The position numbers and the translations under genes are program-made. This document shows, one piece after another, positions 6,691 to 45,198 of a stretch of 64,000 nucleotides of DNA (position 1 is the first letter of the stretch; the number at the start of each line of letters is the position of its first letter). This stretch comes from Candidatus Babelota bacterium. Its GTDB lineage: Bacteria; Babelota; Babeliae; Babelales; RVW-14. The stretch is taken from contig JAFEAY010000016.1 in assembly GCA_018266175.1 (NCBI GenBank), forward strand, positions 1,029 through 65,028. The letters run 5' to 3'. The notes under the pieces are model-generated. The model was not told the DNA's origin, made no database searches, and worked only from the letters and a program-made list of their open reading frames with translations.

Positions 6691-6818
6691 AGTAAAAACC
6701 TTGATTAACACAAACTTGATAATTAAAATACCCCACAAACCTTGATCAAATCGAATATATCACCACTCAAATTCTTCGATACACCTCGCTGCGCGAGGCA
6801 CTCAGGACGAGCAAAATG

Positions 6819-8922: not shown

Positions 8923-9006
8923 AGTCAAAACCTTGCGTTTTAGAAGTACAATAAGAAAATCTTTGTATGTTTACACTAAAAATTCGTAACGGTCAAAAAA
9001 ACAATT

Positions 9007-12032: not shown

Positions 12033-12034
12033 CT

Positions 12035-14821: not shown

Positions 14822-14839
14822 AAATAGAAAAAACAAACC

Positions 14840-15835: not shown

Positions 15836-15836
15836 T

Positions 15837-20016: not shown

Positions 20017-20025
20017 TGTACTATT

Positions 20026-21054: not shown

Positions 21055-21752
21055 TTAATCCGGAACAAAAACCACAACTGAATTCTCAGATCACTCGGCA
21101 AGATCGTGATAAAAAACTTTCAGATGTAAAGCTCTCATACCTTAAAAAATACCTTCAACAATATGATATCCTTGATGTAGGTGCTGGCCGTTGTTACTAT
21201 AGCGATTGGATAGCTGAACATTATCCGGCAGCTCACATTACAGCACTTGATCACATTCCACTTGATGTAAGCAACCTGCCAAAAGAAATCTCCTATCACG
21301 TTACAGATCTTGAAAAGCCTCTTTATCTTGCCGATAAAACATTTAACTCAATTCTTGCTTTTGACATCATAGAACACATTTCACACGAAGAGCAGCTCGT
21401 TTTAGATCTTTTTAGACTGTGCAAACCAGGAGGTGTTTTGATTGGCTCAGTCCCTCACGATAATGATAAATTTTTACCAGCGTATAATCTCACGTTTAAC
21501 CATCGTCGTGACATGACGCATAAACGCTATTATATCCCTGAAACCCTACGCCAAGCACTTACACGTGCTGGTTTTTCAGATATTACCATCGAACTGCAAG
21601 GAGGAGCTTCGCCTCACGTTATTGCAGAATTTTTTCCTCAAGCATCGCAACTGCTTGTCAAAAAATGTATCGGACTTTTACGCAAGATTGGTATTATCAA
21701 CACAAAAATTCTTGCCTCTGACCTTTTTTTCGTTGCACACAAGGCCCTTTGA
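21051..21752 (+). CDS. Class I SAM-dependent methyltransferase
   Basis: 'ILDVGAGRCYYSDWIAE' (motif I), 'FDIIEHI', 'LCKPGGVLIGSVP'. GTG start overlaps the preceding stop. Confidence 0.75.
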   Translation: MINPEQKPQLNSQITRQDRDKKLSDVKLSYLKKYLQQYDILDVGAGRCYYSDWIAEHYPAAHITALDHIPLDVSNLPKEISYHVTDLEKPLYLADKTFNSILAFDIIEHISHEEQLVLDLFRLCKPGGVLIGSVPHDNDKFLPAYNLTFNHRRDMTHKRYYIPETLRQALTRAGFSDITIELQGGASPHVIAEFFPQASQLLVKKCIGLLRKIGIINTKILASDLFFVAHKAL

Positions 21753-21770
21753 GTGAGAAAAGGAGAACTG

Positions 21771-23096: not shown

Positions 23097-23100
23097 TCCC

Positions 23101-30284: not shown

Positions 30285-32444
30285 ATGAGATTATATCAAT
30301 CTATCAGAGCACTCTTCTTATTGAGTGCTCTTTTTTTTAAGCATGCAGATGGCTCGAACCTAAACGGCACAGCAGCCGTCGTCTATAAAAATCAACATCA
30401 TGTTTTTTCAAACGGAGAAAGCGCACTCGGGTATGTCCGCATGAACGGCGGCTTTACCGTCAAGCCTGGTGCCACCGCAACACTTGATACGGTTGTTTCC
30501 GTTTCTGGCAGTATTGATTTGCGTGAAACAGGAGTTCTTCAACTGCTCAAAGATCTAAATCTTGATGCAGGTGTAACATGGTCCAGTGGTGGTTACATCA
30601 AAGGACGTAGCCGAGCGTTGATTCTAAACGACACACTCTCAATCCCCGCTTCAAAAATTATCCACATTTCAGATGATACGATTATTGACGGTAACGGGAA
30701 TACACTCTTATTAAACGATTATGCGCAAATTTTTGTTGATAACAATGTAACGCTTACGCTACGAAACTTGGTTGTATGCAACACCAAAAACAACGTGAAT
30801 AACCCCTGCCTCAGAATTAGCGGTAACCGTGGCAAGCTTGCGCTTGATAACGTTGAACTCGCCATGGCAAATGATATGGCATTAGCGCAAGGACAACTTT
30901 ACTTCCACAACGAAGTTATTTTTACCGGAAGCTCTACATTCATTTATAATTCCCCTGAAGCAAGTTTCATTACACGCTCTGGAGTTGTAAAGTTTGATAA
31001 AGGAACAACGTTTTCATTTGCTCCAACGAGCACTGCAGATCATCTGTTCAAACTTCAAGACAAAACATCAACACTCTATTTAAATGGTTGCACACTGAAG
31101 ACAACAAGTTCTGGTATGCGATTAACCAAAGGCAATTTAATTCTTGATAACAAAATTGTTTTAGAGAGCAATCCAGGAAATGGTTCAATGCCTGCAACTT
31201 TAACCTTACTTGATGACGCCGATTACACAACAACATCTGGAGGTTTAAATATTTCCGCATGGCATCCAAACGGAAATGTGCTCGCCATTGGAGGACAAAG
31301 AGTTCTCAGCACTCCAGGCTTTGCAAATCACAACGAACTACGACTTTTTTCATTTGATGGAGCAATCCTAACAGCTCTAACCAGCCAAGACTATGGAACC
31401 AATTTTAATAACCAAGTGCAAGCACTTGCATGGACTCCAGATGGACGATTTCTTGCTGTTGGGGGAACACTTGCAGATACCGTTGGGGGCTTTGCAAATA
31501 CTGATGAGCTACGAATTTACAGTTTTAACGGGTCAACACTTACGGCTGTTACCAGCCAACCATACGGCACTGCAGGAGCTGGGCAAATTTATGATCTTTC
31601 ATGGAATCCTGATGGAAAAACAATTGCTCTTGTTGGACGAATTCAAGCAGCTGTTGGTGGATTTCCTTCAACAGACTCTATTCGGCTGTATAGCTTTAAT
31701 GGAACGTCACTCACTGCACTAACCAGCCAGCCATACGGCCCAGGAAGTCAAACGCTTAGAGTCGCCTGGTCACCCGATGGTAAGACACTTGCAATTGGTG
31801 GTGGGTCACCCACTGCCGTGGGTGGTTTTGCAAATACCGATCAACTTCGTTTGTATAGTTTTAATGGATCTACGCTTACGGCATTAACAAGTAGCTCTTA
31901 TGGCTCAAGTTCAGCCTTCAATGTTTATGCACTTGCATGGTCACCTGACGGAAAATCCCTAGCATTTGGCGGAGACCTTGGTGGTGGTCCAGTACCAAAC
32001 CAATTGAGAGTGTGCTCTTTTACAGGAAATACATTGAAATTAACAGCAGGCCAACCATATGGAATTCAAATAACATGGATTGATTGGTCACCGGACGGAA
32101 AGACTCTTGCTGTTACTGGACAAAGCACAGGAACTGAACTATTTGACTTTTCAAGCACAACAACTCTTAATGCTATAACAACGGTTTCGATTGCTTCATA
32201 CACACCAACAGTACGATGGGCACCTAATGGCAAAACGCTTTCGCTCAGTGCATATAGCCCAACAAGTGGAAATGAATTGCAATTGTACAGCGTAGGTTTT
32301 TCTCAGGAATCGTTTCCTCAATCTTATTCCCGCTCGATTATTTTTGGCAACAGTGCTTTGGGTAGCTCAAGTAATTTGAATGCCGAAGTGCTGGGCGCTG
32401 CGCACGTAACAATTAACGGCATTGTCAATGACGACTCGGTGTAA
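30285..32444 (+). CDS. Exported protein: beta-helix-like N-region plus seven PD40/WD-like propeller repeats
   Basis: Signal peptide MRLYQSIRALFLLSALFFKHADG. Seven repeats of about 50-57 aa, e.g. 'LAWSPDGKTLAIGG...VGGFANTDELRLYSFNGSTLTALTSQPYG'. The N-terminal 300 aa are rich in N/T/G strand-turn patterns. Confidence 0.6.
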   Translation: MRLYQSIRALFLLSALFFKHADGSNLNGTAAVVYKNQHHVFSNGESALGYVRMNGGFTVKPGATATLDTVVSVSGSIDLRETGVLQLLKDLNLDAGVTWSSGGYIKGRSRALILNDTLSIPASKIIHISDDTIIDGNGNTLLLNDYAQIFVDNNVTLTLRNLVVCNTKNNVNNPCLRISGNRGKLALDNVELAMANDMALAQGQLYFHNEVIFTGSSTFIYNSPEASFITRSGVVKFDKGTTFSFAPTSTADHLFKLQDKTSTLYLNGCTLKTTSSGMRLTKGNLILDNKIVLESNPGNGSMPATLTLLDDADYTTTSGGLNISAWHPNGNVLAIGGQRVLSTPGFANHNELRLFSFDGAILTALTSQDYGTNFNNQVQALAWTPDGRFLAVGGTLADTVGGFANTDELRIYSFNGSTLTAVTSQPYGTAGAGQIYDLSWNPDGKTIALVGRIQAAVGGFPSTDSIRLYSFNGTSLTALTSQPYGPGSQTLRVAWSPDGKTLAIGGGSPTAVGGFANTDQLRLYSFNGSTLTALTSSSYGSSSAFNVYALAWSPDGKSLAFGGDLGGGPVPNQLRVCSFTGNTLKLTAGQPYGIQITWIDWSPDGKTLAVTGQSTGTELFDFSSTTTLNAITTVSIASYTPTVRWAPNGKTLSLSAYSPTSGNELQLYSVGFSQESFPQSYSRSIIFGNSALGSSSNLNAEVLGAAHVTINGIVNDDSV

Positions 32445-32461: not shown

Positions 32462-33679
32462 ATGAAAAAAATATTATTCATACATCATGGAAAAGGACTG
32501 GGCGGTGCGCCGCTCAGTCTCCTATACTTGGTTGAATCGCTTGATACAACCAAGTATACGCCAATTGTTTTGTTTTTGCATCACTCTGAAGTGATTGAAC
32601 TTTTTAAAGAACGGGGCATCCAAACAGTTGGACCGGTCAACGTCTACGACTTTGCACATACTAAAATTTGGTGGTTTGGGTGGCGACACGCGCATCACCT
32701 TGCACGAGCAATTAAAGACACCATTAAAACAATGTTGTTTATCGCACCAAAAATACTTGCTCATATCAAGCCGGATCTTGTACACCTGAACACCAGTTCA
32801 TTACTGGGCTGGGGCATTACTGCGCGGAAAAAAAATATCCCACTTGTCTGGCACATTCGTGAGCCGCTTGCTTCTGGGTATTTTGGCATTCGCAAAAAAA
32901 TTGTACAACAAACCGTTAAGCGCTACGCTGACGCAATTGTGCCTATTTGTAAGCACGATGCAACGCCATGGGCTCATAACAAAAAAACACACGTTGTCTA
33001 CAACGCCGTACACGAAAAATATTTTAATGAAAAATCTGATGTAACATCGTTTTTCGCATCGCACGGAGTGCCAAAAGATGACCCCAAAATTCTTTTTGTT
33101 GGTGGCCTTTCCAAAGAAAAAGGAACGCTTGAAATTTTAAAAATTTTTCAAAAAGTTCTTATAAAAATTCCAAATGCAAAACTGTTGCTCGCAGGCTACC
33201 TGCACAAGCAAGCACTCAGTTGGAAACAATTAATCCATCGAATTTATCCGGCAAGCAATTATGCTCATCAGATTCATGTGCTACTTGAGGAGCTTGGTTC
33301 ATCAGTCATTCAACTCGGCTCCATTCGCAACATTCCTGCAGCAATGACTGCAAGCAATGTTATAGTATTTCCTGCAACCGTTGGCCACTTTGCACGACCA
33401 ATTATCGAGGCCGGATTTATGAAGAGACCGGTCGTAGTATCAGCCCTTGCACCGCTTGATGAGCTCGTTATTGATGATAAAACAGGTTTTTTAGTTGCTA
33501 TTAATAATCATCAATTATGGGCAGAAAAGTTGTGCTTATTGTTGACTGACAAGCTCTTAGCACAGAGAATGGGTAATGCTGCGTATGCTTTTTGTAGAGA
33601 AAAATTTAGCCTGCCTGAGCAGGTACAAAAGATAGAAAAAATTTATACTGAGCTCTTGACCAAGGAGTCGCATGAATAA
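32462..33679 (+). CDS. Glycosyltransferase, GT4
   Basis: 'MKKILFIHHGKGLGGAPLSLLYL', 'GHFARPIIEAGFMKRPVVVSALAPLDELVIDDKTGFLV'. Confidence 0.75.
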   Translation: MKKILFIHHGKGLGGAPLSLLYLVESLDTTKYTPIVLFLHHSEVIELFKERGIQTVGPVNVYDFAHTKIWWFGWRHAHHLARAIKDTIKTMLFIAPKILAHIKPDLVHLNTSSLLGWGITARKKNIPLVWHIREPLASGYFGIRKKIVQQTVKRYADAIVPICKHDATPWAHNKKTHVVYNAVHEKYFNEKSDVTSFFASHGVPKDDPKILFVGGLSKEKGTLEILKIFQKVLIKIPNAKLLLAGYLHKQALSWKQLIHRIYPASNYAHQIHVLLEELGSSVIQLGSIRNIPAAMTASNVIVFPATVGHFARPIIEAGFMKRPVVVSALAPLDELVIDDKTGFLVAINNHQLWAEKLCLLLTDKLLAQRMGNAAYAFCREKFSLPEQVQKIEKIYTELLTKESHE

Positions 33680-34472
33680 GCAAACACTCAAAGATTCCGT
33701 TAAAAACTACTGGAATCAAGCAAGCTGTGGAACAGAATTTATTAATAAGCAAAAGTTCTCACCCGAATACTTTCAGGCAATCGAAGAATTCAGGTATCGC
33801 ATAGAACCTGAAATTTTCTCCTTTGCACAGTTCACCCGATTTCATGGTAAAAAAATGCTGGAGGTTGGGGTTGGTGCAGGAAGTGACTTTTTGCAATGGG
33901 TCCGCGCTGGCACACAGGCGCATGGCATTGATTTGACCGCTGAAGCAATTGAAAATGTTAAACAACGCTTAGCTGTTTATAATCTGCAAGCAACAGATCT
34001 ACAAGTAGCTGATGCTGAACAACTGCCATACGCTGATAACTCATTTGATCTGGTTTACTCATGGGGCGTCATTCACCACTCACCCGACACAGAAAAGTGT
34101 TTGGCTGAAATTGTGCGCGTTACCAAACCAGGCGGCACAATTAAGATTATGATTTATAACCGCTACTCACTCTTTGCTTTTTATCGCTATCTTGCATGCG
34201 CACTTTTCAAGGGCAAGCCGTTCAAAAGTTTTAAATCGGTCTTGTTTGATCATCAAGAAAGCCCAGGAACTAAAGCTTACACGTTTGCTGAAGCAAAAAA
34301 GATGATTGCTGCGCATCCTGTAAAAACTGTCTCACTGAACGCTCAAGTTTCAGCGCATGATCTGCTCTACTACAAAGGACGCTTTGTTCAATTTTTTGCA
34401 TACGTTGCAGCATGCCTTTTTGGCTGGCGTCGTGTGGGATGGTTTATGACTCTTGAATTACAAAAAAAATAA
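33672..34472 (+). CDS. Class I SAM-dependent methyltransferase
   Basis: 'MLEVGVGAGSDFLQWVRAG', 'FDLVYSWGVIHHSPD', 'VTKPGGTIKIMIYN'. Confidence 0.8.
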   Translation: MNKQTLKDSVKNYWNQASCGTEFINKQKFSPEYFQAIEEFRYRIEPEIFSFAQFTRFHGKKMLEVGVGAGSDFLQWVRAGTQAHGIDLTAEAIENVKQRLAVYNLQATDLQVADAEQLPYADNSFDLVYSWGVIHHSPDTEKCLAEIVRVTKPGGTIKIMIYNRYSLFAFYRYLACALFKGKPFKSFKSVLFDHQESPGTKAYTFAEAKKMIAAHPVKTVSLNAQVSAHDLLYYKGRFVQFFAYVAACLFGWRRVGWFMTLELQKK

Positions 34473-34493
34473 GGGCTGAAATTTCCAGCCCTT
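34471..34493. terminator. Bidirectional intrinsic terminator between convergent genes
   Basis: AAGGGCTG-aaatttc-CAGCCCTT, flanked by an A-run on the left and 'ataaatt' on the right. Confidence 0.6.
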
Positions 34494-34517
34494 ATAAATT
34501 CGTATAACTTTTATACT

Positions 34518-35744
34518 TTATTTATTACGTTCAGTTATCAACTGATACGAGGTTTTAATGCCAACGGCGTTATAAAGTTTTTTGTATTTATTAAATGTTG
34601 CAGTTGGATCATTAACTTGTACCAATTGCTTTTTAAGCATTGTTTTATCAAGTGAACCAATAAGCGTTTTTATATCTGCATCAGAACAGTTATTCATAAA
34701 TGCTTGATGAGGTGTCAACACACTGTTCACAGCTCCAGACCGAGCATCTTCTCGATTCATAACAACAACATGCGCCAATGCATTTTGAAAGTCGATTGCT
34801 TCAAGAGATGTAAGATTTACTGTCGGTTTTGGTGTTGTCACTACAACAGGCTTTGTTACCGCAACTGCCGGTTTGGGCGTATAAGCTGGTGGTAAAGGCG
34901 GAGGCGTTGGTATCGATGACGACTGCTTTGCAGGAGGAAGCGGTGGTGGCACAGGTATCGTTACTTTGCTTCCAGGAAGCGGTGGAGGTACCGGAATCTT
35001 GCTACCAGGCAACGGTGGCGCTGGAGGCGGTGGAGGTGGCGTACCTGACAATGGTGATGGCATTGCAAACGGTTCTACCGGTTGATCATGTTTTTCTGTT
35101 GCAGTTGCATTGGCTCCCTGTTTTTTCCCAAAAAAAGCTTCTAGTGCTGCCTTGCGATCATCACCAAGCTTACCTGGAACCTCTTCTTGAGCTGTAGCCG
35201 AGGAACCTGAAGAAGCCGCTTGTTTTTTCGCAAAAAAATCTTCTAGTGCTTTCTTGCGATCAGCGCTCAACTTTCCTGGAGTTCCTTCTGAATCTTTTAA
35301 TTTTTCAGAAACTGGGTCAACTTTTTTTCCACCGTAACGCTCCTCGAGCTTTGCTTTGAGAGCATCAAGTTTGGGGCTTAATTTCCCAGGAGCAGTTTTT
35401 TGCTCTTTTTGAAATTCCAAAGTATTAAGCAACTCTTTTTTCCGTTGATCAGAAATTTTGCTCGGCTTAATTTGAGGCTCATCTTCAGAAGAAAGCTCTT
35501 GGCCTTTACGAATTTTTTCTTCTCTGATTTGACGCTGAAGCTCAAGCGCTTCAAGAGCACTAAGCCCTGCTTTTTGATCTTCTTTTTCAATTACAGATTG
35601 CTTAGATTCACCTGGCAAAGCATCTTTAAGAACACCTAGTTCCTCATCAATACTTATTGGACTCTCTTGAACTCGACATTCAAGATTAGCAACAAGCAGG
35701 ATCGAAATCGCTATGATTCCCGAAATAAATTTATTCTTCATCAT
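34518..35744 (-). CDS. Exported proline-rich protein (paralogue A): 3 PGKL repeats, FH1-like polyproline block, shared C-terminal WH2-like module
   Basis: Signal peptide MMKNKFISGIIAISILLVANLEC. Repeats 'PGKLSADRKKALEDFFAKKQ' and 'PGKLGDDRKAALEAFFGKKQ'. Polyproline 'PPPPPPAPPLPGSKIPVPPPLPGSKVTIPVPPPLPPAKQSSSIPTPPPLPPAYTPKP'. The C-terminal ~100 aa are shared with the two upstream genes. Confidence 0.85.
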   Translation of the reverse strand: MMKNKFISGIIAISILLVANLECRVQESPISIDEELGVLKDALPGESKQSVIEKEDQKAGLSALEALELQRQIREEKIRKGQELSSEDEPQIKPSKISDQRKKELLNTLEFQKEQKTAPGKLSPKLDALKAKLEERYGGKKVDPVSEKLKDSEGTPGKLSADRKKALEDFFAKKQAASSGSSATAQEEVPGKLGDDRKAALEAFFGKKQGANATATEKHDQPVEPFAMPSPLSGTPPPPPPAPPLPGSKIPVPPPLPGSKVTIPVPPPLPPAKQSSSIPTPPPLPPAYTPKPAVAVTKPVVVTTPKPTVNLTSLEAIDFQNALAHVVVMNREDARSGAVNSVLTPHQAFMNNCSDADIKTLIGSLDKTMLKKQLVQVNDPTATFNKYKKLYNAVGIKTSYQLITERNK

Positions 35745-35756
35745 ACTCTCTCTTTT

Positions 35757-37604
35757 TTATTTGTTTCGTTCAGTTATCAATTGATAAGAAGTTTTAATAC
35801 CAACGGCGTTATAAAGTTTCTTATATTTATTGAATGTTGTAGTTGGATCACTCACCTGGACTAATTGCTTTTTAAGCATTACTTGATCAAGTGAACCAAT
35901 AATCGTTTTTAGATCTTCATCAGAACACTTATTCATAAATGCTTGATGAGGTGTCAATAGACTATTCACAGCACCTGAACGAGCATCTTCTCTATTCATT
36001 ATAGAAATCTGCATTAATGCATTTTTAAAATTAATTGCTTCAAATGATGTATAATTCAAAACAGGTTTTTCAGCTCGAGCTGCACGCTGAATTTCAAGCG
36101 CCTCAAGAGCCTTAACCTGAGCAACTTCTGCACCTTGAGCCGCTTTTTCCTGCTCCCACAAATCTTTAAGATGAGCTTTGCGCTTTGCCTCTAGCTCTTG
36201 CTCCAATTTTGCAATCTTATCTTGCGCTTGATTTTTATCAGTCGACGCTTGACGCTCTTTAAGCTCCTGCAATGTTTTAATATGCCCAAGTACATCAGCC
36301 CCAGTGGGCACTTGCTCTTGGCTTGTAAAATCACGTCCTTGCTTCATAAGTACGAGTAAATTTTTCACCCTACTTAATTCATCACCTGACAGCGTTGTTG
36401 TTTCTGGATTGGAGTTACGGTCAAGCCAATCAACTAAGATTTGATCAACAACCTTGGAAAGACGTATTTCATAATCACGCATTTTCTCTTCAGGAACAGT
36501 AGTATATCGATATACAAGAATACCCGAATCAGGATTCAGCAACATATCATTGGTAAAAAGCAAGCGTGCCTGCACCATGTTTGGTTCTTTAAATTGATCA
36601 GGAAGAACTTTGAATCGCTCCAAAAAAGTTGAAACTTTAAAACGCCCATCGTTTACTGCTTTAAAAAGAAGATCTATTTGAGCCCTAAACGTTTGCTCAC
36701 CTCTCATATGCGCATCTTGTACTCTTTCAAGGTAAGCACGTATTTCATCCATTTTTCCACCGTAGATACTTCCAAACATTTCCACAATAAATTCAGGATT
36801 GTCTGGATCATTTGGAATACCGTGCCGCCAAGAAAGATATGCTATTTTATCAGCCATATTTTTTGGAATAAAAATTTGATACAGCGTCCCTTCTGGCGTT
36901 GCAATAATTTCATAAATTTCTCGCAACTCATCAATAAACCTTTTGTTCAAACCTGCTTTTTCAAAAAAACCGGGTAAAATTTTTGCCAATGGATCGAAAT
37001 GAGATAACCCGGTAACAAAATAATTCCACGTTGTTTCGCCTCCAATACCAATACCACCAAAAGGTGAAAGATTAACCGACATGATAAAAGTCTTCACATC
37101 CGAAATATTATCATCAATCAATCCGCGCGCTTCAATTTCTTTTTTTAAAAATTCATCGGCAGTACTGTAGGTATCAAATATTGGGTCATTCCATCGAAAG
37201 AATACAAAATTTTTAATGTTTGCTTTTAATGCAAAAAACTCATAAAACTTTTTATAAAGATCTTGAACTAAGCGAAACCGAGGGTCACAAGAATGATAAA
37301 AAGTATAATAATTTTGGTGTGCACGCTCTTGTTTTATGAGATCTTGAACAAGCTCATTTTTATCATCAACTTGAAACTGTTCTTTTACTTTATCTAGAAG
37401 CGTTCCCCTTCTATTAGGAATGGCAAAGTGAGCCTCTATTTGAGTCATTTTTTTTTTAGGTTTTTGAGTTGTTTTTTTTGATTCTTGCTTGGTTTGTTTT
37501 TTTATAACTTGCGCTTTAAGAGATTTAACGCCTATCAAAGTAACCAATCCAAAAGAACAAACAATAAAGCTTAAGATCCCTGATAATCGTAAAATTCCCC
37601 TCAT
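35757..37604 (-). CDS. Exported/anchored hypothetical protein (paralogue B): ~330-aa unknown domain, coiled coil, shared C-terminal WH2-like module
   Basis: Collinear with the 37687-39549 protein. The likely start is ATG 37604 (MRGILRLSGILSFIVCSFGLVTLIGV), preceded by a G9 run plus AGCT. The ORF track starts at TTG 37637. Only a 12-nt gap separates it from paralogue A. Confidence 0.85.
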   Translation of the reverse strand: MRGILRLSGILSFIVCSFGLVTLIGVKSLKAQVIKKQTKQESKKTTQKPKKKMTQIEAHFAIPNRRGTLLDKVKEQFQVDDKNELVQDLIKQERAHQNYYTFYHSCDPRFRLVQDLYKKFYEFFALKANIKNFVFFRWNDPIFDTYSTADEFLKKEIEARGLIDDNISDVKTFIMSVNLSPFGGIGIGGETTWNYFVTGLSHFDPLAKILPGFFEKAGLNKRFIDELREIYEIIATPEGTLYQIFIPKNMADKIAYLSWRHGIPNDPDNPEFIVEMFGSIYGGKMDEIRAYLERVQDAHMRGEQTFRAQIDLLFKAVNDGRFKVSTFLERFKVLPDQFKEPNMVQARLLFTNDMLLNPDSGILVYRYTTVPEEKMRDYEIRLSKVVDQILVDWLDRNSNPETTTLSGDELSRVKNLLVLMKQGRDFTSQEQVPTGADVLGHIKTLQELKERQASTDKNQAQDKIAKLEQELEAKRKAHLKDLWEQEKAAQGAEVAQVKALEALEIQRAARAEKPVLNYTSFEAINFKNALMQISIMNREDARSGAVNSLLTPHQAFMNKCSDEDLKTIIGSLDQVMLKKQLVQVSDPTTTFNKYKKLYNAVGIKTSYQLITERNK

Positions 37605-37686
37605 AGCTCCCCCCCCCACTTTATATTTGTAGAGCAATCGGGCTAGAATACTCCAGCCCGTTACCCCTCAAGTATTAACGTTTTTT

Positions 37687-39549
37687 CTATTTATTTCGCT
37701 CATCGATCAGTTTAAGTGTATTTGAAATACCAATAGCTTTATAAAGGTTTTTGTATCTATTGAAAGTTGATGTTGGATCACTCACCTGCACCAATACTTT
37801 TTTAAGTACTGATTGATTGAGCGAACTCATTATATTTTTCATATCAACATCAGAAGATTGTGCAATAAAAGTTTGATGTGGCGCTAATAGATTATTAATC
37901 GCACCTGAACGAGCATCTTCTATTGTCATTCCCATCACCTGTTTCAACGTAGCTTTCAAACTCATCGATTCTTGGGATAATGATTCTACTTCAGATTTCC
38001 CAGCCTGAGCTATACGCTGAATTTCAAGCGCTTCAAGAGCCTTAGCTTGAGCAGCCTCTGCAGCTTGAGCCGCTTTCTCTTGCTCCCAGAGCTCTTTAAG
38101 CTGAGCCTTGCGCTTTGCTTCAAGGTTCTGTTCAAGCTTAGAAACTTCAGATTTTGCTTTTGCTTGAGCTTCTTGATCAACTGATGCCTGCCGCTCCTTG
38201 AGTTCTTGCAATGCTTTAATATGTGCCAAGGTATCAGCTCCAGATGGGGCCTCTGTTTGTCCGGTAAACTCTCTCCCTTGCTTCATAAGGCTCATCAGGT
38301 TTCGAGCTCTACCAAGCTCTTCGCTGGATAGCTTTGAGCTTGCAGAATTTGAATTTCGATCTAACCAATCAATTAAAATTTCATCAATAAGTCGAGCTAG
38401 TTTTTCTCGATACTCCTGCATTTTCCCAGCAAGAACATCTTCATATCGGTAGATAATAATTCCAGAATCAGGATTAAGAAGCTCATTATTGGTAAAAACT
38501 AATCGAGCTTGAACATAATTCATAACTTTTGTTGGATTGGTTCGATATGAATCAAGAAAAGTTGATAACCTATACTTGCCTGTAGTCATTGACTTAAGCA
38601 TGTCATTGAGGGCGTCACTATAAATTTTCTCACCTCGAGCAGAAGCTGCTTGAATTTCATCAACTTTTTGCTGCAAATCGGCATACCGTGTAAATATTCC
38701 CGCTTTGCCGAAAATCTCCTGAAGTTTTTCTTCATTGAGCGGAATACCAAGCCTCCACGATAAATAACCTATTTTATCAGCCATACCCTTAGGAATAAAA
38801 ATCTGAAAAAAACTTCCAGTTGGCGTGTCAATTGAAGCCCCAAGCTCCTGAAGCCGTGGTATAAACTTTTCGTCAAGTCCAAAAGTTTTAAAAATACCCG
38901 CTAAAAAACCTGCTTGTCGTGCAGGGTCCATGATACCTGTACCTGTTGCATAAAAGTTATATGTCGACTCTCCAGGAATACCTGTGTTTCCAAATGGTGA
39001 TAAATTAGCTGATAAAAGAAAAAAATTTACCTTGTTGTCGTCAATAATGCCTTTTTCTGCAAATTGTTTTTTTATAAAATTTTCGGCAGTATCAATGTCG
39101 CTAAAAACAGGGTCTTGGCAACGGAGGAAAGTAAAATTCTTTATTTTTGCCTTGAGAGCAAAAAATTCATAAAATGCCTTGTAGGCATCTTGATTTATAC
39201 GTAGTGATGGAGTTTGAGCATGGTAAAAATCATAGTGGGTGTCCCAATGCTCATGGGCTCGAGCATTCATTTGCTGAACCATTTCTGGTAAATCATCAAT
39301 ACCAAAATTCTTTTTTACTATATCTTGAAAAAATGCTGCTTTAATTTTTTTTTTCACACTCGGAAGGCTTAAGTGTGCCTCGATTTGAGTCATTTTCTTC
39401 TTCTGAGCAGAAGGCTTTTTTGGTTTATAAATTGATTGCTTAGCCTCTTGAACTCGTGCCTCAAGCGATGCTTTAAAAAAGAAGGTCCCTAATCCAAAAA
39501 ATAAAAGTGCTACACTAAACGTTCCCCAAATAAGTCGATTCTCCTTCAT
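37687..39549 (-). CDS. Exported/anchored hypothetical protein (paralogue C), same architecture as B
   Basis: N-terminal TM 'LIWGTFSVALLFFGLGTFFF', shared 'KKKMTQIEAH', 'FYEFFALKA.IKNF.F', 'LSPFG', 'LSWR.GIP', 'DWLDRNSN', a coiled coil 'LEAKRKAQLKELWEQEKAAQ', and a tail with 'SLNQSVLKKVLVQVSDP'. GGGGAG Shine-Dalgarno sequence. Confidence 0.85.
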   Translation of the reverse strand: MKENRLIWGTFSVALLFFGLGTFFFKASLEARVQEAKQSIYKPKKPSAQKKKMTQIEAHLSLPSVKKKIKAAFFQDIVKKNFGIDDLPEMVQQMNARAHEHWDTHYDFYHAQTPSLRINQDAYKAFYEFFALKAKIKNFTFLRCQDPVFSDIDTAENFIKKQFAEKGIIDDNKVNFFLLSANLSPFGNTGIPGESTYNFYATGTGIMDPARQAGFLAGIFKTFGLDEKFIPRLQELGASIDTPTGSFFQIFIPKGMADKIGYLSWRLGIPLNEEKLQEIFGKAGIFTRYADLQQKVDEIQAASARGEKIYSDALNDMLKSMTTGKYRLSTFLDSYRTNPTKVMNYVQARLVFTNNELLNPDSGIIIYRYEDVLAGKMQEYREKLARLIDEILIDWLDRNSNSASSKLSSEELGRARNLMSLMKQGREFTGQTEAPSGADTLAHIKALQELKERQASVDQEAQAKAKSEVSKLEQNLEAKRKAQLKELWEQEKAAQAAEAAQAKALEALEIQRIAQAGKSEVESLSQESMSLKATLKQVMGMTIEDARSGAINNLLAPHQTFIAQSSDVDMKNIMSSLNQSVLKKVLVQVSDPTSTFNRYKNLYKAIGISNTLKLIDERNK

Positions 39550-39841
39550 GTTTTCTCCCCATTTTCTTTATGATATGATCAAGTTTGTATTAAAAAATAT
39601 AAACACTTCTAACTTACTTTAATTTACTATTAGAAATGATATCAATGGTTTTACAACAAAACCTAAAAACATATAGCCCAAGCTTATTTTTGTTTTTTAA
39701 ACTCAAGAGCAATTTTTTTAAGTTTTAGTTTCAAAACCTCTAGATGTGATAACAGACCCCTCCAAGCACATTACCCTTTTTGACAATCGGTTTTTATGCT
39801 AACCTAGAGAGCATTACTCAAGTAGCGAAAGGGAAATACTT

Positions 39842-40366
39842 ATGAATATTCATGACGAAACAGACAATAAATCAACAACTCATGGCCAACCAGAGTCTCA
39901 AACTGATGCACCATTCACCAATGAAAATAGCATTGAAGAAACCGCAAACGACTATAGAGCACAGTTCTTGCGAGCTTCTGCAGATTTTGCTAACTACAAA
40001 CGCCGGGTAGAAAAAGAGCGACTTGAATGGATGCAAACAGCACAAAGTTCAATTTTGCAAAAAGTTCTTCCGATTATTGACGATCTTGAACGTGCACTTG
40101 CTCATACTCAAAACAATGTATCAACAGAACAAAACCCTTGGGTAGAAGGCTTCATTCTTATTCAAAAGAATGCACAAAAATTGCTCGCCGACCTTGGAGT
40201 TGAGCTGATTGATGCTTCAGGAACATTTGATCCCGAGCTCCACGAAGCTCTTGTCAGCGTTCAAGTTGATAACAAGCAAGAAGGACAAATTGTCGACGTA
40301 CTCCGTAAAGGATACCTCTTTAAAGGCAAAGTTCTTCGGCACACACAGGTAACTGTGGCAAAATAA
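39842..40366 (+). CDS. grpE: Nucleotide exchange factor GrpE
   Basis: 'RASADFANYKRRVEKER', 'LPIIDDLERAL', 'FDPELHEAL', 'GYLFKGKVLRHTQVTV'. Confidence 0.9.
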   Translation: MNIHDETDNKSTTHGQPESQTDAPFTNENSIEETANDYRAQFLRASADFANYKRRVEKERLEWMQTAQSSILQKVLPIIDDLERALAHTQNNVSTEQNPWVEGFILIQKNAQKLLADLGVELIDASGTFDPELHEALVSVQVDNKQEGQIVDVLRKGYLFKGKVLRHTQVTVAK

Positions 40367-41269: not shown

Positions 41270-42934
41270 ATGAAGGCAGGAATAAAAATTGCACTGGTAC
41301 TCCTGATTGGGGGGATTGTTCTTGGTGGTGGTATTTTCGGCTATAAGCTCTACCAAAAATATCTTGCTATTTCTGGTGCCGTTGAGCTGCTCGAAATGGC
41401 CCACAGCAAAACAAAGTCACTCAAGAGTAAAAAGAAACAATCAAAAAAAATTGCCGAAACGAAATCATCAAAAAGCCCATCAAACTGGTTAGAAGTTCAG
41501 CAAAAGGTTAAGGATACCGTTGTCCAAGTTTTTGCAAACATCTCTGAATTTAACTGGCTTGAACCCTATAAAACTCCTGAACAAAGCAAAAGTGCAGGAA
41601 GTGGTTTTTTCATTAATGAAGAAGGTGACATTGTCACTAACTACCATGTTGTTGCTCAAGCTGCATGTGTACAAATTCAGATTCCATCATTTGGCATGGA
41701 GCGCTTTGATGCCAGCATTGTTGGAGTAAGCCCTGATCGAGATATAGCATTACTTAAGCTTACCGATGCAGCACGTGCAAAAATTTCACAACGCATTAAT
41801 CCAATCCCCTATTTAGAACTTGATGATTCTGACAATATTTTACGCTCTCAAGAGGTACTCGCATTGGGTTATCCACTAGGACAAGCTCGCGTAAAAAGCA
41901 CACTTGGTATTGTGAGCGGACGCGAACGACTTGGCTACTTTGGTTATATTCAAATTACCGCAGCGCTCAACCCAGGAAACTCTGGCGGCCCAGCGCTCAA
42001 CTCGGTTGGAAAAGTAATCGGCATCAATAATTGTGGCGTTATGGAAGCTCAAAATGTTGGGTATATTATCCCGATTAACGAAGTAAAAAGCGCTCTGCAA
42101 GATTTGTATAAAGTTCCATTGCTGCGCAAACCAACACTGGGCTGTATTTTTACCGTTGCAACTCCTGAGATGGTCAGCTTTTTGGGCAACCCCGGAAGTG
42201 GCGGCTGGTACATTGCTAAAGTATTTGAAGACACCTTGCTTGAAGCGGTAGGCATTAAAGAAGATGATATGCTTTATGCGGTCAATGATAACCGCGTTGA
42301 TATTTATGGTGAAATGAATGTTGACTGGAGCGAAGATAAAGTTTCTCTTTTTGAATACCTCAATCGACTTACTATCGGCGATACCATCAATTTCTTGATT
42401 TATCGCAAAGGTGAACGTAAAGAATTTACCTTCAAGCTCGAGCACAAGTACTTGCCCTCAGTCAGATCTATCTATCCAGAATTTGAACCTGAAGCGGTCG
42501 ATTATGAGGTTATCGGTGGTATGGTTGTGATGCAATTGACCCTCAATCATATCGGCAGAATGATTCAGCGCTGCCCAGATTTAGTTCGTTTTGGACGTGT
42601 TGAAGCGCAGCATGAACCATCACTGGTCATTACCTATATTCAACAAAACTCTCAGGCCGATAAAGCACGTGTACTGCGACCAGGAGAAATTATTGAAGCA
42701 ATCAATGGTGAAAAGGTAAAAACACTTGATGAATTTAGAAAAGCGGCTCTTAAGAGTGCTGATAACAACTACCTCACCATTCGTACCGAAGATAAGCTGT
42801 ATGGCGTTCTTGCTCTTGATAAAATTATCAAAGATGAAGACTCACTCTGTTCTCAATATTTCTTCAGAAAATCGAACTTGGTTCGAAGACTTGCAGATTT
42901 ATCAAGCACCGGAACAGCCACACTGAGTGCATAA
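41270..42934 (+). CDS. HtrA/DegP-family serine protease with PDZ-like C-terminal region
   Basis: N-terminal TM. Catalytic triad context 'TNYHVV', 'DIALLKL', 'GNSGGPAL'. Confidence 0.85.
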   Translation: MKAGIKIALVLLIGGIVLGGGIFGYKLYQKYLAISGAVELLEMAHSKTKSLKSKKKQSKKIAETKSSKSPSNWLEVQQKVKDTVVQVFANISEFNWLEPYKTPEQSKSAGSGFFINEEGDIVTNYHVVAQAACVQIQIPSFGMERFDASIVGVSPDRDIALLKLTDAARAKISQRINPIPYLELDDSDNILRSQEVLALGYPLGQARVKSTLGIVSGRERLGYFGYIQITAALNPGNSGGPALNSVGKVIGINNCGVMEAQNVGYIIPINEVKSALQDLYKVPLLRKPTLGCIFTVATPEMVSFLGNPGSGGWYIAKVFEDTLLEAVGIKEDDMLYAVNDNRVDIYGEMNVDWSEDKVSLFEYLNRLTIGDTINFLIYRKGERKEFTFKLEHKYLPSVRSIYPEFEPEAVDYEVIGGMVVMQLTLNHIGRMIQRCPDLVRFGRVEAQHEPSLVITYIQQNSQADKARVLRPGEIIEAINGEKVKTLDEFRKAALKSADNNYLTIRTEDKLYGVLALDKIIKDEDSLCSQYFFRKSNLVRRLADLSSTGTATLSA

Positions 42935-43020: not shown

Positions 43021-43086
43021 AGAAAAACCCAAATACCCTCTTGCTCTTGTTCAAATTGGGTTTTTTTATAAAATTTGATGAGACCT

Positions 43087-45198
43087 ATGAATAAATTATT
43101 TTTTTTAACCTTATTTCTACTCAATGTTAATACTGCTACAGGATCCCTAGAAATGTCTTTGAACAAGCTACATAATAGCCTGCAAGACTTAAGGAACCGA
43201 CTCACAACGCTAAGAGATAACCTCAACAAATTAAAAAGTACGCTATCTGGGAAGCAAGTTGACCAACCTGAGGAAGTAAAAAAAATTGTATACGATAAAA
43301 TTGACTACCTAGAGATCCCTGAAGACGACCTTGATCTTCCTTTTCCAGAAAATATTAGGCAAAATTTTCCCAACACAAGTGTTTTTGAAAAATTTTATCA
43401 GTACTTTAAACAAAAATATTTAAGCACAGCGGTTTTGGATAATAAATGCCAAGCCTGGATTAAATATCCAGAGCACTACAAAATTCACATTTCTGATGAA
43501 GAATTTGAAGAGTCTCGTCTTCATGACGAACTCAATTTATTGGGCGTTCTTGAATCTGAAAAAAAATTCGAAGAACTCAAAAAAACCGCAACACCTGAGA
43601 TGCTCAAGAAATTAAACAAACAGCTAATGGATACAAATTATTTTATGAAAATAGCTGAGCTCAAAGATAGAGCAACAAACAACGTTATCCTAGCTCAGAA
43701 ACAAAGAGCCCGCGGAATAAATTTATTCAATCACCTTCCAATAGCATTAGATACCATTGGTCGAGCTTGTTTTGAAAAGTATGTTCTTGATGCATGCCTT
43801 GCATACATTAATCAGCATGACCCAAACCGCATGGCTTCTGCAAACGATGAGCTTTGGGTTTATACTAATTTTTTAAAAAAATTTATTACTCAAAACCTGT
43901 CTAGTTCAGCCGAAAATCTTGTATTAAATAATGCAGCCGAACTTACCATACAATCTCTGGATGATATGTACTTTCATGCAGAAAGAGACCCCGACTCGGA
44001 CTATCCATCCAGCTCAAAAAATTTTGTCTGGTGCCATTGTTTATTAGGAAGACTACTTGAATGTAATGATATCCATCCTGATATCAGAAAATCGCTTCAG
44101 AGTAATTCCTTAAAGTATCCACTATGCTATCTTATCTATGAGACAATGCACATAACGCTTAATCACAATTACTTCCTCATCAATAAATTGGCACATCTTT
44201 TTAACTGGGATAAAAATGTTGAAATTCCCAAAAAAGTTTCATTTCATATCGGATTCGAACAGGCTTTTGGTGAAATAATAAACCTTTTTGTCGACAATGA
44301 AAAAATGGTTGAAAGTAAATTGCTCATACAAACTCAAAAAAAAGAATTTGCTGATAAAGGAGAAATCCTACTAAGAGACGGTCACCCTCGGAATATTATT
44401 TACGGAAAAAAGCGAGAAATACCACTCGCTTCTGATCCAGTAATAGATGCCAATACAAAAAATTTACCGTACAACGACAACAAAAATGAATTTCAATGGT
44501 CACAAATAACAGCAACGAATGATCATCCCTCTGCTGTAACAGACAATGATCTTCGTTATGCGATAAAGCTTCATCTCTCTCGCCATTCTTGTTACAGCGT
44601 AGGACTCATTCCTCGAGACCTCGTTGAAGTGATAAAACTTCCAATAGAAAAAGAAATAGAAAAAGCAAAAATTATACGTAAGTACATAATAAATCCTAAA
44701 GAACAAGATCGATTAGATAATGAATTTAAAAAACTACGCCGCATTGTAGCTATTGGCACAGTCCTTTCTGGTGTTGGAGATTTTACAAAATCAAATGACA
44801 TAAATACTCGTTTCAAGGACATTCTTAACGAAAAAACCAGTGAGATTATTCTTAAGAATAAGGCCACTCAAATCAGTCAGCTCTTCACTGAACAAATTAA
44901 AGTTAATAGTTATTACATCAAGGAGGATAATACAAAAGAGCAAGATGCTCATATTACACTTCATTCAATTAATCAAGAAGAATGGCTTGGTGTATTTTCC
45001 TACCTTAAATCAATTCTCAATCGTTCACTTGACGGCGACGCTAACCTAGAAAAACAGCACAAAAATATAAACGCTTTCATAAAAGCACTCAAAGAAAATT
45101 CTATGCAAGAAAGACTTGAGAAAATCATGACTGATAAAAAAGATAAAGACTGTCTTGAACCGATTTATAAAGCACTTTATAAGATTTTTCCAAGCTGA
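43087..45198 (+). CDS. Large exported hypothetical protein
   Basis: Signal peptide MNKLFFLTLFLLNVNTATG, then a coiled-coil-like 'LNKLHNSLQDLRNRLTTLRDNLNKLKSTL'. I recognise no catalytic motif. Alternative starts are 43075 and 43078. Confidence 0.7.
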   Translation: MNKLFFLTLFLLNVNTATGSLEMSLNKLHNSLQDLRNRLTTLRDNLNKLKSTLSGKQVDQPEEVKKIVYDKIDYLEIPEDDLDLPFPENIRQNFPNTSVFEKFYQYFKQKYLSTAVLDNKCQAWIKYPEHYKIHISDEEFEESRLHDELNLLGVLESEKKFEELKKTATPEMLKKLNKQLMDTNYFMKIAELKDRATNNVILAQKQRARGINLFNHLPIALDTIGRACFEKYVLDACLAYINQHDPNRMASANDELWVYTNFLKKFITQNLSSSAENLVLNNAAELTIQSLDDMYFHAERDPDSDYPSSSKNFVWCHCLLGRLLECNDIHPDIRKSLQSNSLKYPLCYLIYETMHITLNHNYFLINKLAHLFNWDKNVEIPKKVSFHIGFEQAFGEIINLFVDNEKMVESKLLIQTQKKEFADKGEILLRDGHPRNIIYGKKREIPLASDPVIDANTKNLPYNDNKNEFQWSQITATNDHPSAVTDNDLRYAIKLHLSRHSCYSVGLIPRDLVEVIKLPIEKEIEKAKIIRKYIINPKEQDRLDNEFKKLRRIVAIGTVLSGVGDFTKSNDINTRFKDILNEKTSEIILKNKATQISQLFTEQIKVNSYYIKEDNTKEQDAHITLHSINQEEWLGVFSYLKSILNRSLDGDANLEKQHKNINAFIKALKENSMQERLEKIMTDKKDKDCLEPIYKALYKIFPS

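What the first reader, a model, noticed from the sequence alone, without database searches (positions are those of the whole stretch)
34869..35060. FH1-like polyproline block (PPPPPPAPPLPG / PPPLPG / PPPLPP x2) in an AT-rich genome
Residues ~229-292 of protein A read 'PSPLSGTPPPPPPAPPLPGSKIPVPPPLPGSKVTIPVPPPLPPAKQSSSIPTPPPLPPAYTPKP'. Runs of five or more Pro and repeated PPPLP units match the profilin-, SH3- and EVH1-binding tracts of formin FH1 domains, WASP/VASP ligands, and bacterial mimics such as the Pro-rich regions of VopL/VopF, BimA, Sca2 and ActA. Encoding this with CCN codons is compositionally costly in an AT-rich genome, which argues for selection.
Basis: partly seen in the sequence, partly recalled or inferred. 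Interest (0 to 1): 0.7.

Follow-up and report, generated by a model that had tools for sequence, protein, structure and literature searches.

The report
Formin-like proline tract, exported TM6 protein
An uncultured intracellular bacterium of the phylum Dependentiae (TM6) encodes an exported orphan protein whose conserved proline-rich segment closely copies the profilin- and WW-binding units of eukaryotic formins, so it is a plausible but unproven host-cytoskeleton mimic.

Summary
Residues 229-292 of the 408-aa ORF 34518-35744(-) map exactly to 34869-35060. They are 47% Pro (background 3.9%) and carry four PPLP-core units. Units 2-3 read IPVPPPLPG/P, one substitution from the profilin-binding mDia1 unit IPPPPPLPG. 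The organism is a Dependentiae/TM6 (Babeliales) bacterium, a phylum of intracellular parasites of protists.

Protein A has a Sec-type signal peptide, four amphipathic helix-plus-KK repeats, the disordered Pro block, and an orphan all-alpha C-terminal domain (CTD). Two upstream paralogs share the CTD. The only ortholog is 65-69% identical, against 81-97% for neighbouring genes. It keeps three PPLP units under purifying selection (dN/dS 0.17), while the adjacent P/T/K/V linker drifts neutrally (about 1.1).

No FH2, WH2, acidic-Trp, EVH1-ligand, TonB or autotransporter feature was found. The six-Pro run is not conserved. ARPC5 is the top structural match to the CTD, but the match is not significant.

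Best reading (about 0.45): an exported multivalent ligand for host proline-recognition modules (profilin, WW class II, SH3). Main rival (about 0.3): a passive envelope or surface stalk. The formin-like label holds at motif level only.

The parts
34518..35744 (-). Protein A gene (408 aa plus stop), last gene of a probable three-gene operon
   Evidence: ORF list and sequence. The ortholog P0002 is 65-69% identical with conserved synteny. No Pfam family matches.
35676..35744 (-). Sec-type signal peptide, residues 1-23 (MMKNK, a 13-residue hydrophobic core, then ANLEC|RVQE)
   Evidence: Hydrophobicity maximum at residues 7-18. The AlphaFold2 model places an N-terminal helix at residues 4-23. The same layout and an RVQE junction occur in the ortholog and in paralog 3. 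The cleavage site is inferred by inspection; no SignalP run was available.
35502..35564 (-). Conserved helix LSALEALELQRQIREEKIRKG (residues 61-81). It is also found just before the C-terminal domain in both paralogs (ALEALEIQR).
   Evidence: Identical in the ortholog. Part of the predicted helix 48-79. It repeats the first helix of the C-terminal domain at DNA level (repeat family D4).
35118..35465 (-). Four amphipathic helix-plus-basic repeats, P[GS]K[LI]S..RKKALE.FF.KKQ. Residues 94-116, 119-142, 156-175 and 190-209.
   Evidence: Predicted helices 99-116, 124-137, 161-179 and 194-210. Repeats 3 and 4 are 80% identical over 69 nt. Alignment A3. No WH2 or thymosin-beta4 match.
34869..35060 (-). 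The Pro-rich block (residues 229-292), predicted disordered, with four PPLP-core units
   Evidence: dN/dS is 0.17 against the ortholog.
35004..35039 (-). Unit 1: PPPPPPAPPLPG (residues 236-247). The ortholog has QPPPAPPLPG.
34965..34997 (-). Unit 2: IPVPPPLPGSK (residues 250-260). This 13-aa unit is absent from the ortholog.
34926..34958 (-). Unit 3: IPVPPPLPPAK (residues 263-273). It includes the only conserved class II SH3 consensus, PLPPAK (PLPPTK in the ortholog).
34881..34913 (-). Unit 4: IPTPPPLPPAY (residues 278-288). Its PPAY (PPxY) motif is not conserved in the ortholog.
34833..34868 (-). P/T/K/V-rich linker (residues 293-304) that evolves neutrally. It serves as an internal control for the Pro block.
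   Evidence: 8% identity and dN/dS about 1.1 against the ortholog.
34521..34832 (-). Orphan all-alpha C-terminal domain (residues 305-408), shared with the two upstream paralogs
   Evidence: AlphaFold2 model of the domain alone: pLDDT 92.4, pTM 0.82, seven helices. dN/dS 0.13. Only three representatives in 1.84 billion proteins. No significant match in the PDB or BFVD.
34469..34495 (-). Intrinsic terminator-like hairpin (12-bp stem plus T-run), 23 nt after the stop codon
35757..37637 (-). Paralog 2 (626-aa ORF, called as 615 aa in P0004): signal/anchor, unknown ~400-aa N-domain, coiled coil, C-terminal domain
37687..39549 (-). Paralog 3 (620 aa), same architecture as paralog 2. A promoter-like site lies upstream at 39616-39645(-).

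Best explanation
Protein A is an exported, lineage-restricted protein of a Dependentiae (TM6/Babeliales) bacterium, a phylum of intracellular parasites of protists.

Shown: after Sec export, the mature protein is largely extended. It has one conserved helix, four amphipathic helix-plus-KK repeats, a disordered 64-residue Pro block, and a compact orphan all-alpha C-terminal domain.

Inferred: the Pro block is not a passive spacer. It is a multivalent array of four formin-FH1-type units (phi-P-x-PPPLP-G/P), displayed as polyproline-II helices. These units engage host proline-recognition modules. Profilin is the first candidate, because the units differ by one residue from the profilin-binding mDia1 unit. 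Class II (PPLP-binding) WW domains and SH3 domains are the alternatives.

More speculative: the helix repeats or the C-terminal domain supply a second contact, such as actin, a host organelle or the bacterial surface. The protein would then concentrate profilin-actin or adaptor proteins where it sits, in the way surface-clustered Pro-rich/WH2 proteins speed filament growth.
For: Motif identity with a measured profilin ligand: IPVPPPLPG here, against the mDia1 peptide IPPPPPLPGVASIPPPPPLPG with Kd about 2.7 uM. PPLP is also a documented high-affinity WW ligand.

Multivalency and order: there are four units spaced 11-15 residues apart, and the longest tract lies farthest from the folded domain.

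Sequence-specific constraint: block dN/dS is 0.17 at dS about 1.25. Nineteen of 21 aligned Pro positions are kept, nine of them with synonymous codon changes. The abutting P/T/K/V linker shows 8% identity and dN/dS about 1.1. Strain variants have an identical block.

The gene as a whole evolves fast: 65% identity against 81-97% for 14 syntenic neighbours, and dN is 2-13 times higher at similar dS. It sits in a variable island where an ankyrin-repeat gene, a WD40 gene and the two paralogs come and go.

Organism and export route: HtrA places the window in Babeliales/Dependentiae. A type II secretion system (T2SS) is core to TM6 genomes. In the cultivated Chromulinavorax destructans, 44% of coding sequences carry signal peptides, including ankyrin-repeat proteins, and the cells replicate in host cytoplasm. 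All six WD40 proteins in this window have signal-peptide-like N-termini. A GspF/PilC gene and a prepilin-like gene lie in the window.

The AlphaFold2 model leaves the block disordered and exposed between structured parts.
Against: No binding or localisation data exist. No recognised actin-binding or nucleating module is present: FH2, WH2, and the C/A region with Trp are all absent, and the protein has no Trp at all. Units 2-4 have only three consecutive prolines, and the single six-Pro run is missing from the ortholog, so profilin affinity may be low. Only one orthologous lineage exists, so comparative power is small. Whether this bacterium is cytosolic, or how a T2SS substrate would cross a vacuole membrane, is unknown. 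Pro-rich segments are also common in bacterial envelope proteins.
Confidence: 0.45

Rival explanations
1. Passive stalk or spacer. The Pro block forms a rigid polyproline-II rod that spans the periplasm or projects the C-terminal domain from the cell surface, in the manner of TonB, TolA or OmpA hinges. It has no specific partner. The C-terminal domain anchors to or recognises an envelope or host-surface component.
For: The overall layout resembles TonB/TolA: an N-terminal hydrophobic segment, a charged helical region, a Pro-rich region, and a ~100-aa C-terminal domain. The block is followed by a TPKP/TKP-type linker. The unit number differs between species, 4 against 3, as expected for a length-tolerant spacer. 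No host-binding domain is recognised. The gene lies beside envelope polysaccharide genes.
Against: A spacer should conserve composition, not position. Here the PPLP units are positionally conserved (dN/dS 0.17), while the true linker next to them drifts at dN/dS about 1.1. No TonB_C or TolA family hit was found, and the C-terminal domain is all-alpha, not the alpha/beta TonB/TolA fold. The hydrophobic core is only 13 residues, which fits a cleaved signal peptide better than a membrane anchor. The two paralogs join the same C-terminal domain to their N-domains without any Pro block.
Confidence: 0.3
2. Adhesin or uptake factor, or a ligand for another non-cytoskeletal partner. The exposed PPLP array and the C-terminal domain bind a host surface or vesicle-trafficking protein, or a bacterial SH3b-like partner, unrelated to actin or profilin.
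For: PPLP and PxxPxK motifs are generic ligands of many WW and SH3 proteins. The C-terminal domain is shared by paralogs with a different N-domain, which suggests a common targeting module. The gene is fast-evolving and lies in a variable island.
Against: No positive evidence exists for any particular partner. The closest sequence precedent for the unit is a formin FH1 unit.
Confidence: 0.15
3. Arp2/3-subunit mimic. The C-terminal domain is a highly diverged ARPC5 (p16-Arc)-like domain that docks onto or substitutes in the host Arp2/3 complex, while the FH1-like tract feeds it profilin-actin.
For: ARPC5 chains are the top-ranked PDB matches in two independent Foldseek searches, one with the full-length model and one with the domain-only model. 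There is a local sequence echo, D-I-x5-SLDK.
Against: The matches are not significant: E-values of 0.18-0.7 for the top-ranked ARPC5 chains (weaker for the rest), TM-scores 0.32-0.46, rmsd 5-7 A. hhalign probability is 0.5% over 13 columns. The Pfam P16-Arc model does not match any of the four C-terminal domains at E<=10. The profile search of PDB sequences does not return ARPC5.
Confidence: 0.04

Closest known systems
Formin FH1 domains (e.g. mDia1 units IPPPPPLPG)
   Same: Repeated phi-P-x-PPPLP-G units in a disordered segment N-terminal to a folded domain. The longest tract lies farthest from that domain. The PPLP core is also the classic ligand of formin-binding-protein WW domains.
   Different: There is no FH2 domain; the C-terminal domain is a 104-aa orphan helical bundle. 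The tracts are shorter (3 Pro against 5). The protein is bacterial and carries a Sec signal. No homology beyond low-complexity similarity was found.
Bacterial Pro-rich actin-assembly factors: BimA, Sca2, ActA, RickA, VopL/VopF, TARP
   Same: An exported or surface-routed protein of an intracellular bacterium carrying a eukaryote-like Pro-rich tract. The Pro-rich region of the NCBIfam BimA model is the only family model that touches the block (18.4 bits).
   Different: The BimA score is far below its cut-off of 800 and is compositional. There is no autotransporter or membrane anchor, no WH2, no FPPPP, and no acidic-Trp region. There is no structural match to the VopL C-terminal domain among the top 50 listed PDB hits. 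The phylum (Dependentiae) has no described actin effector.
Verprolin/WIP, Ena/VASP and WASP-type Pro-rich plus G-actin-helix polymerases
   Same: The module order is short amphipathic helices with basic tails, then profilin-type Pro tracts. This recalls the collaboration of WH2/G-actin-binding and Pro-rich regions described for WASP-family proteins (abstract of PMC5753033, listed).
   Different: The helix repeats do not match WH2 or thymosin-beta4 profiles (hhalign probability 0.2%) and lack LKKV. There is no EVH1 domain and no tetramerisation domain.
TonB/TolA-type envelope-spanning proteins
   Same: An N-terminal hydrophobic segment, an extended charged/Pro-rich middle, and a small C-terminal domain.
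   Different: There is no TonB_C or TolA match, the C-terminal fold is all-alpha, the Pro units are PPLP and not EP/KP, and the motifs are conserved by position.

Membership tests
Formin (FH1-FH2) | FH1-type polyproline tracts | tested here: met
   Four PPLP-core units and one PPPPPP run. The units are one substitution from the mDia1 unit IPPPPPLPG. This is a match at motif level only.
Formin (FH1-FH2) | FH2 domain C-terminal to the FH1 tract | tested here: not met
   No Pfam hit. The C-terminal domain is 104 aa and all-alpha, with no significant PDB match.
WASP/WAVE-type nucleation-promoting factors (including RickA and ActA-like mimics) | WH2 (V) motif with LKKV/T | tested here: not met
   Pfam WH2 is not reported at E<=10 for the whole protein, the repeat region or single repeats. 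hhalign against the N-WASP V region gives probability 0.2%. No L[KR]K[VTA] motif is present.
WASP/WAVE-type nucleation-promoting factors (including RickA and ActA-like mimics) | Central/acidic region with a conserved Trp that binds Arp2/3 | tested here: not met
   The protein contains no Trp and no acidic-Trp motif.
Tandem-WH2 nucleators (VopL/VopF, Spire, TARP-like) | Two or more WH2 repeats beside a Pro-rich region, plus an oligomerisation domain | tested here: inconclusive
   Four amphipathic helix-plus-KK repeats precede the Pro block, but none scores as WH2 or thymosin-beta4. The oligomeric state of the C-terminal domain cannot be tested here.
Ena/VASP EVH1 ligands (ActA-type FPPPP) | (F/W/Y/L)PxphiP core | tested here: not met
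   No match in protein A or in the ortholog.
BimA (trimeric autotransporter actin nucleator) | NCBIfam NF040984 above its cut-off, with a YadA-type anchor | tested here: not met
   18.4 bits against a cut-off of 800, on the Pro block only. No autotransporter domain was found in Pfam.
Profilin ligands (functional class) | A polyproline-II tract long enough for profilin (mDia1-like xPPPPPLPG, or at least 5-6 Pro) | tested here: inconclusive
   Unit 1 of protein A qualifies (PPPPPPAPPLPG). The ortholog has only QPPPAPPLPG, and the other units have three consecutive Pro. Binding itself cannot be tested with these tools.
Class II WW-domain ligands | PPLP core | tested here: met
   Four copies in protein A and three in the ortholog, all positionally conserved. 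PPLP is documented as a high-affinity ligand of the first WW domain of PRPF40A/FBP11.
SH3 ligands | [RK]xxPxxP (class I) or PxxPx[RK] (class II) | tested here: inconclusive
   No class I motif. One conserved class II match, PLPPAK/PLPPTK.
TonB/TolA | TonB_C or TolA C-terminal alpha/beta domain | tested here: not met
   No Pfam hit at E<=10. The model is all-alpha. No TonB or TolA chain appears among the top 50 listed Foldseek hits.
ARPC5 / P16-Arc | Sequence or fold match to the ARPC5 helical domain | tested here: inconclusive
   It is the top Foldseek hit in both searches, but with top-ranked E-values of 0.18-0.7 and TM-scores 0.32-0.46. hhalign probability is 0.5%. There is no Pfam P16-Arc hit, and the PDB profile search does not return it.

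The most novel reading that the evidence does not exclude
The orphan C-terminal domain shared by protein A and its two paralogs is a cryptic ARPC5-like module. These Dependentiae proteins would then dock onto or impersonate a subunit of the host Arp2/3 complex, and protein A would add an FH1-like profilin-actin feeder. That would be a hybrid actin-assembly device with no eukaryotic or bacterial precedent.
Probability: 0.04. Interest if true: 0.85.

Novelty: new variant of a known kind. Interest (0 to 1): 0.45.

Why it matters
Dependentiae (TM6) are widespread parasites of protists that rely on their hosts, and their means of manipulating the host is essentially unknown beyond counts of ankyrin, WD40 and similar repeats. 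A conserved FH1/PPLP-type motif array on an exported orphan protein gives a concrete hypothesis that peptide binding can test: this phylum also copies short eukaryotic linear motifs, possibly to tap the host profilin-actin pool or WW/SH3 adaptors. If confirmed, bacterial Pro-rich mimicry, known so far from Proteobacteria, Firmicutes and Chlamydiae, would extend to a deep-branching phylum that exports effectors through Sec and the type II secretion system. It would also define two new modules, the helix-KK repeat and the C-terminal domain. If refuted, the protein is an ordinary envelope stalk.

Tried and rejected
- Pfam, NCBIfam and PDB sequence searches of protein A, its sub-regions and its paralogs returned nothing significant.
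- The NCBIfam BimA hit is compositional: 18 bits against a cut-off of 800.
- WH2/thymosin identity of the four helix repeats is rejected for now. There is no Pfam hit, hhalign probability is 0.2%, and there is no LKKV.
- ARPC5 homology of the C-terminal domain is not supported by sequence and is sub-threshold by fold.
- The BFVD viral fold library returned nothing.
- A borderline local match of the C-terminal domain profile to eukaryotic uS9 (E 0.011 over 35 aa) is treated as chance.
- The search for more relatives found very little. The word-indexed search gave four hits. The exhaustive profile search gave three representatives. A pattern scan of 185,579 GTDB species genomes gave none. A search with the N-terminal half gave only a fragment of the protein itself. 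The family is therefore confined to two closely related lineages, and deeper comparative tests were impossible.
- TonB/TolA membership is rejected on the C-terminal fold and the lack of family hits.
- The antisense ORF 34829-35197(+) is rejected as spurious, because the minus-strand frame is conserved with dN/dS below 1.
- TRF found no clean tandem array in the block, only a 9-nt, 2.2-copy signal. The units are old, diverged duplications.
Full report
**Observation**

The window carries a 408-aa ORF on the minus strand at 34518..35744. Residues 229-292 read PSPLSGTPPPPPPAPPLPGSKIPVPPPLPGSKVTIPVPPPLPPAKQSSSIPTPPPLPPAYTPKP and map exactly to 34869-35060. Thirty of the 64 residues are proline (47%), against 3.9% in the 47 ORFs of at least 200 aa in the window. 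No other such ORF has even one PPP. Block GC is 58%, against 42% for the gene and 39% for the window.

The units are old DNA-level duplications, 84% and 64% identical over 25 nt. TRF finds no clean tandem array. There is a single run of five or more Pro. The genome is only moderately AT-rich.

**Organism and setting**

The neighbouring HtrA (41270-42934) is 94% identical to an uncultured MAG. It is 41-67% identical to some twenty MAGs labelled Babeliales, Dependentiae or TM6. Dependentiae are known or inferred intracellular parasites of protists. A type II secretion system (T2SS) is part of the TM6 core genome, and WD40, ankyrin and similar repeat proteins are regarded as host-interaction factors (PMC4776705). 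In the cultivated Chromulinavorax destructans, 44% of coding sequences carry signal peptides, ankyrin-repeat proteins among them, and the cells replicate in the host cytoplasm (PMC6561590).

The window fits that picture. It has six WD40-repeat ORFs, all with signal-peptide-like N-termini. It also has a GspF/PilC platform gene and a prepilin-like ORF.

**Anatomy of protein A**

- Residues 1-23 form a Sec-type signal: MMKNK, a 13-residue hydrophobic core, then ANLEC|RVQE. The cleavage site is inferred by inspection and by conservation of the RVQE junction.
- The AlphaFold2 model (mean pLDDT 57) shows a helix at 48-79 that contains the fully conserved LSALEALELQRQIREEKIRKG.
- Four further helices (99-116, 124-137, 161-179, 194-210) coincide with four repeats of the form P[GS]K[LI]S..RKKALE.FF.KKQ.
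- The Pro block is disordered.
- A confident all-alpha domain covers residues 313-406. Modelled alone, this C-terminal domain (CTD) reaches pLDDT 92.4 and pTM 0.82.
- Repeats 3 and 4 are 80% identical over 69 nt.
- A strong terminator follows the stop codon. A promoter-like site precedes the third gene upstream. The three tandem genes therefore probably form one operon.

**Relatives**

The CTD is shared with the two genes immediately upstream, 35757-37637 and 37687-39549. Those genes join it to an unknown N-domain of about 400 aa and a coiled coil, and they have no Pro block.

Beyond these, a word-indexed search of 5.8 billion proteins found only one ortholog cluster (P0002, 399 aa) and fragments. 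An exhaustive HMM search of 1.84 billion representatives with the CTD profile found three proteins, all belonging to this set. A pattern scan of GTDB species genomes found none. The N-terminal half alone found nothing new. The protein and its CTD are therefore orphans, confined to two closely related lineages.

**Selection**

Against the ortholog, protein A is 65% identical by tblastn (69% in the MAFFT alignment). Fourteen syntenic neighbours are 81-97% identical. Its dS of 0.94 is in line with the neighbours (0.6-1.3), but its dN is 2-13 times higher.

Within the protein the constraint is uneven:

| Region | dN/dS | Identity to ortholog |
|---|---|---|
| C-terminal domain | 0.13 | 81% |
| Pro block | 0.17 | 75% |
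| Helix repeats | 0.24 | 67% |
| P/T/K/V linker (residues 293-304) | about 1.1 | 8% |

The 12-residue linker directly after the Pro block drifts neutrally, so it acts as an internal control. Of 21 aligned Pro positions in the block, 19 remain Pro, and nine of those use a different synonymous codon. The ortholog lacks one 13-residue unit, giving three PPLP units instead of four, and it lacks the six-Pro run. Strain-level variants of protein A have an identical block.

In the relative's genome the ortholog lies between GrpE and an ankyrin-repeat gene. The two paralogs and one WD40 gene are absent there. The locus is thus a variable accessory island.

**Motif tests**

- PPLP: four copies in protein A and three in the ortholog, all positionally conserved.
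- EVH1-type [FWYL]PxphiP: none in either protein.
- SH3 class I: none.
- SH3 class II: one conserved match, PLPPAK/PLPPTK.
- PPxY: one (PPAY), not conserved.
- LKK[VTA]: none.
- Acidic-Trp: none. The protein has no Trp at all.

Units 2 and 3 (IPVPPPLPG/P) differ by one residue from the mDia1 FH1 unit IPPPPPLPG. A two-unit peptide of that mDia1 sequence binds profilin with Kd about 2.7 uM (10.1101/2022.01.05.475096). PPLP is also a documented high-affinity ligand of the first WW domain of PRPF40A/FBP11, a formin-binding protein (PMC11079029).

**Family tests**

- Pfam gives no family for protein A or its paralogs, including WH2, FH2, TonB_C and P16-Arc, even at E<=10 on sub-regions.
- NCBIfam gives only an 18-bit, low-complexity match of the block to the Pro-rich part of the BimA model, whose cut-off is 800.
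- hhalign of the eight repeat copies against the N-WASP V region and against thymosin-beta4 gives probability 0.2%.
- Foldseek against the PDB ranks ARPC5 (Arp2/3 p16) first, both for the full-length model and for the domain-only model. The scores are not significant: E-values of 0.18-0.7 for the top-ranked chains, TM-scores 0.32-0.46, rmsd 5-7 A.
- hhalign of the CTD against human ARPC5 aligns 13 columns at probability 0.5%. I wrote the ARPC5 sequence from memory, and it matched PDB chain 6uhc_G across all 151 residues.
- A profile search of PDB sequences does not return ARPC5. It gives a borderline local match to eukaryotic uS9 (E 0.011), which I treat as chance.
- BFVD gives nothing.

**Interpretation**

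Shown:
- The protein is exported-type, fast-evolving and lineage-restricted, and it belongs to an intracellular-type bacterium.
- It carries a disordered array of PPLP units that copy formin FH1 units at motif level.
- That array is under sequence-specific purifying selection, unlike the neighbouring linker.

Inferred:
- The array is a multivalent ligand for host proline-recognition modules. Profilin is the first candidate; class II WW and SH3 domains are the alternatives.
- The helix-KK repeats or the CTD provide a second interaction or a localisation function.

Not shown:
- Any binding.
- Any actin activity.
- The final location of the protein.

The main rival is a passive polyproline-II stalk in the envelope or on the surface. 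The TonB/TolA-like overall layout and the variable unit number favour it. The positional conservation of the motifs, the all-alpha CTD, the short signal-type hydrophobic core, and the paralogs that lack a Pro block all argue against it.

**Comparison with known systems and novelty**

Functionally the tract resembles FH1 domains and the Pro-rich regions of bacterial actin-assembly factors (BimA, Sca2, ActA, RickA, VopL/F, TARP). It fails every testable membership criterion of those families except the Pro tract itself.

Full-text searches that paired Dependentiae or Babela with actin, formin, profilin, proline-rich or WH2 listed no paper that describes such a protein in this phylum. I therefore file it as a new variant of a known kind: bacterial mimicry of eukaryotic proline-rich linear motifs, in an orphan architecture and a new phylum. 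The function is unproven.

Interest is moderate (0.45). The idea is testable and fits what is known of the phylum. It is not very surprising to specialists, and it rests on motif-level inference from two lineages.

Noticed in passing
window 498-2552(-), 2596-4359(-), 4759-6738(-), 6880-8928(-), 30285-32444(+), 54711-56417(+): Six WD40-repeat (eukaryote-like beta-propeller) ORFs, four of them in tandem. All have signal-peptide-like N-termini, for example ...LLANTAQA|MNGNFFEQG. They are likely part of a Sec-exported host-interaction repertoire.
   Followed up: partly
window 35757-37637(-) and 37687-39549(-): Two tandem paralogs carry an unknown N-domain of about 400 aa. Invariant residues across seven sequences include Y109, H110, Q120, R143, S180, N182, Q249-I-F-x-P, D258 and Y262. 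Only five distant homologs (25-32% identity) exist in 5.8 billion proteins, and there is no Pfam or PDB sequence match. It may be an enzyme. Its structure was not predicted.
   Followed up: partly
L029 9178-12935 versus window 33672-40366: This is a variable island. In the related genome the protein A ortholog sits directly next to GrpE. Both 620-aa paralogs and the WD40 gene at 30285 are absent there, and an ankyrin-repeat gene is inserted between the ortholog and the methyltransferase.
   Followed up: yes
window 43075-45198(+): A 707-aa ORF with no family hit and a signal-like N-terminus. Its synonymous divergence from the relative is unusually low (dS 0.27 against 0.6-1.3 for neighbours) and its dN/dS is 0.27. 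This may reflect recent exchange between the lineages.
   Followed up: no
window 58097-62953(-): A GspF/PilC-type platform protein (61739-62953) and an ORF with a prepilin-type N-terminus, AFTIIELLIAL (59242-60294). They belong to a type II secretion or type IV pilus cluster, which is the likely export route for signal-peptide proteins in this phylum.
   Followed up: partly
window 9152-24258(+): A long same-strand polysaccharide or O-antigen-type cluster. It includes glucose-1-phosphate cytidylyltransferase, a CDP-glucose 4,6-dehydratase-like gene, several GT4 glycosyltransferases and a Wzx-type flippase.
   Followed up: no
P0003 (Logan contig of 2.1 kb), corresponding to window ~35040: A 259-aa variant is identical to protein A up to ...PSPLSGT and then reads out of frame through the Pro block. 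This could be an assembly or sequencing error, or slippage in the C-rich tract.
   Followed up: no
window 34521-34832(-) (C-terminal domain): The C-terminal domain profile gives a borderline local match (E 0.011 over 35 residues) to eukaryotic ribosomal protein uS9/S16: l.a.HQ.f....s...LKK...s.D.t.L. ARPC5 is the top but non-significant fold match. Both remain unexplained and may be chance.
   Followed up: partly
window 34469-34495(-) and 39616-39645(-): A strong terminator-like hairpin lies right after protein A, and a promoter-like site lies upstream of paralog 3. Intergenic gaps are 12 and 49 nt. Together these suggest a three-gene operon.
   Followed up: partly
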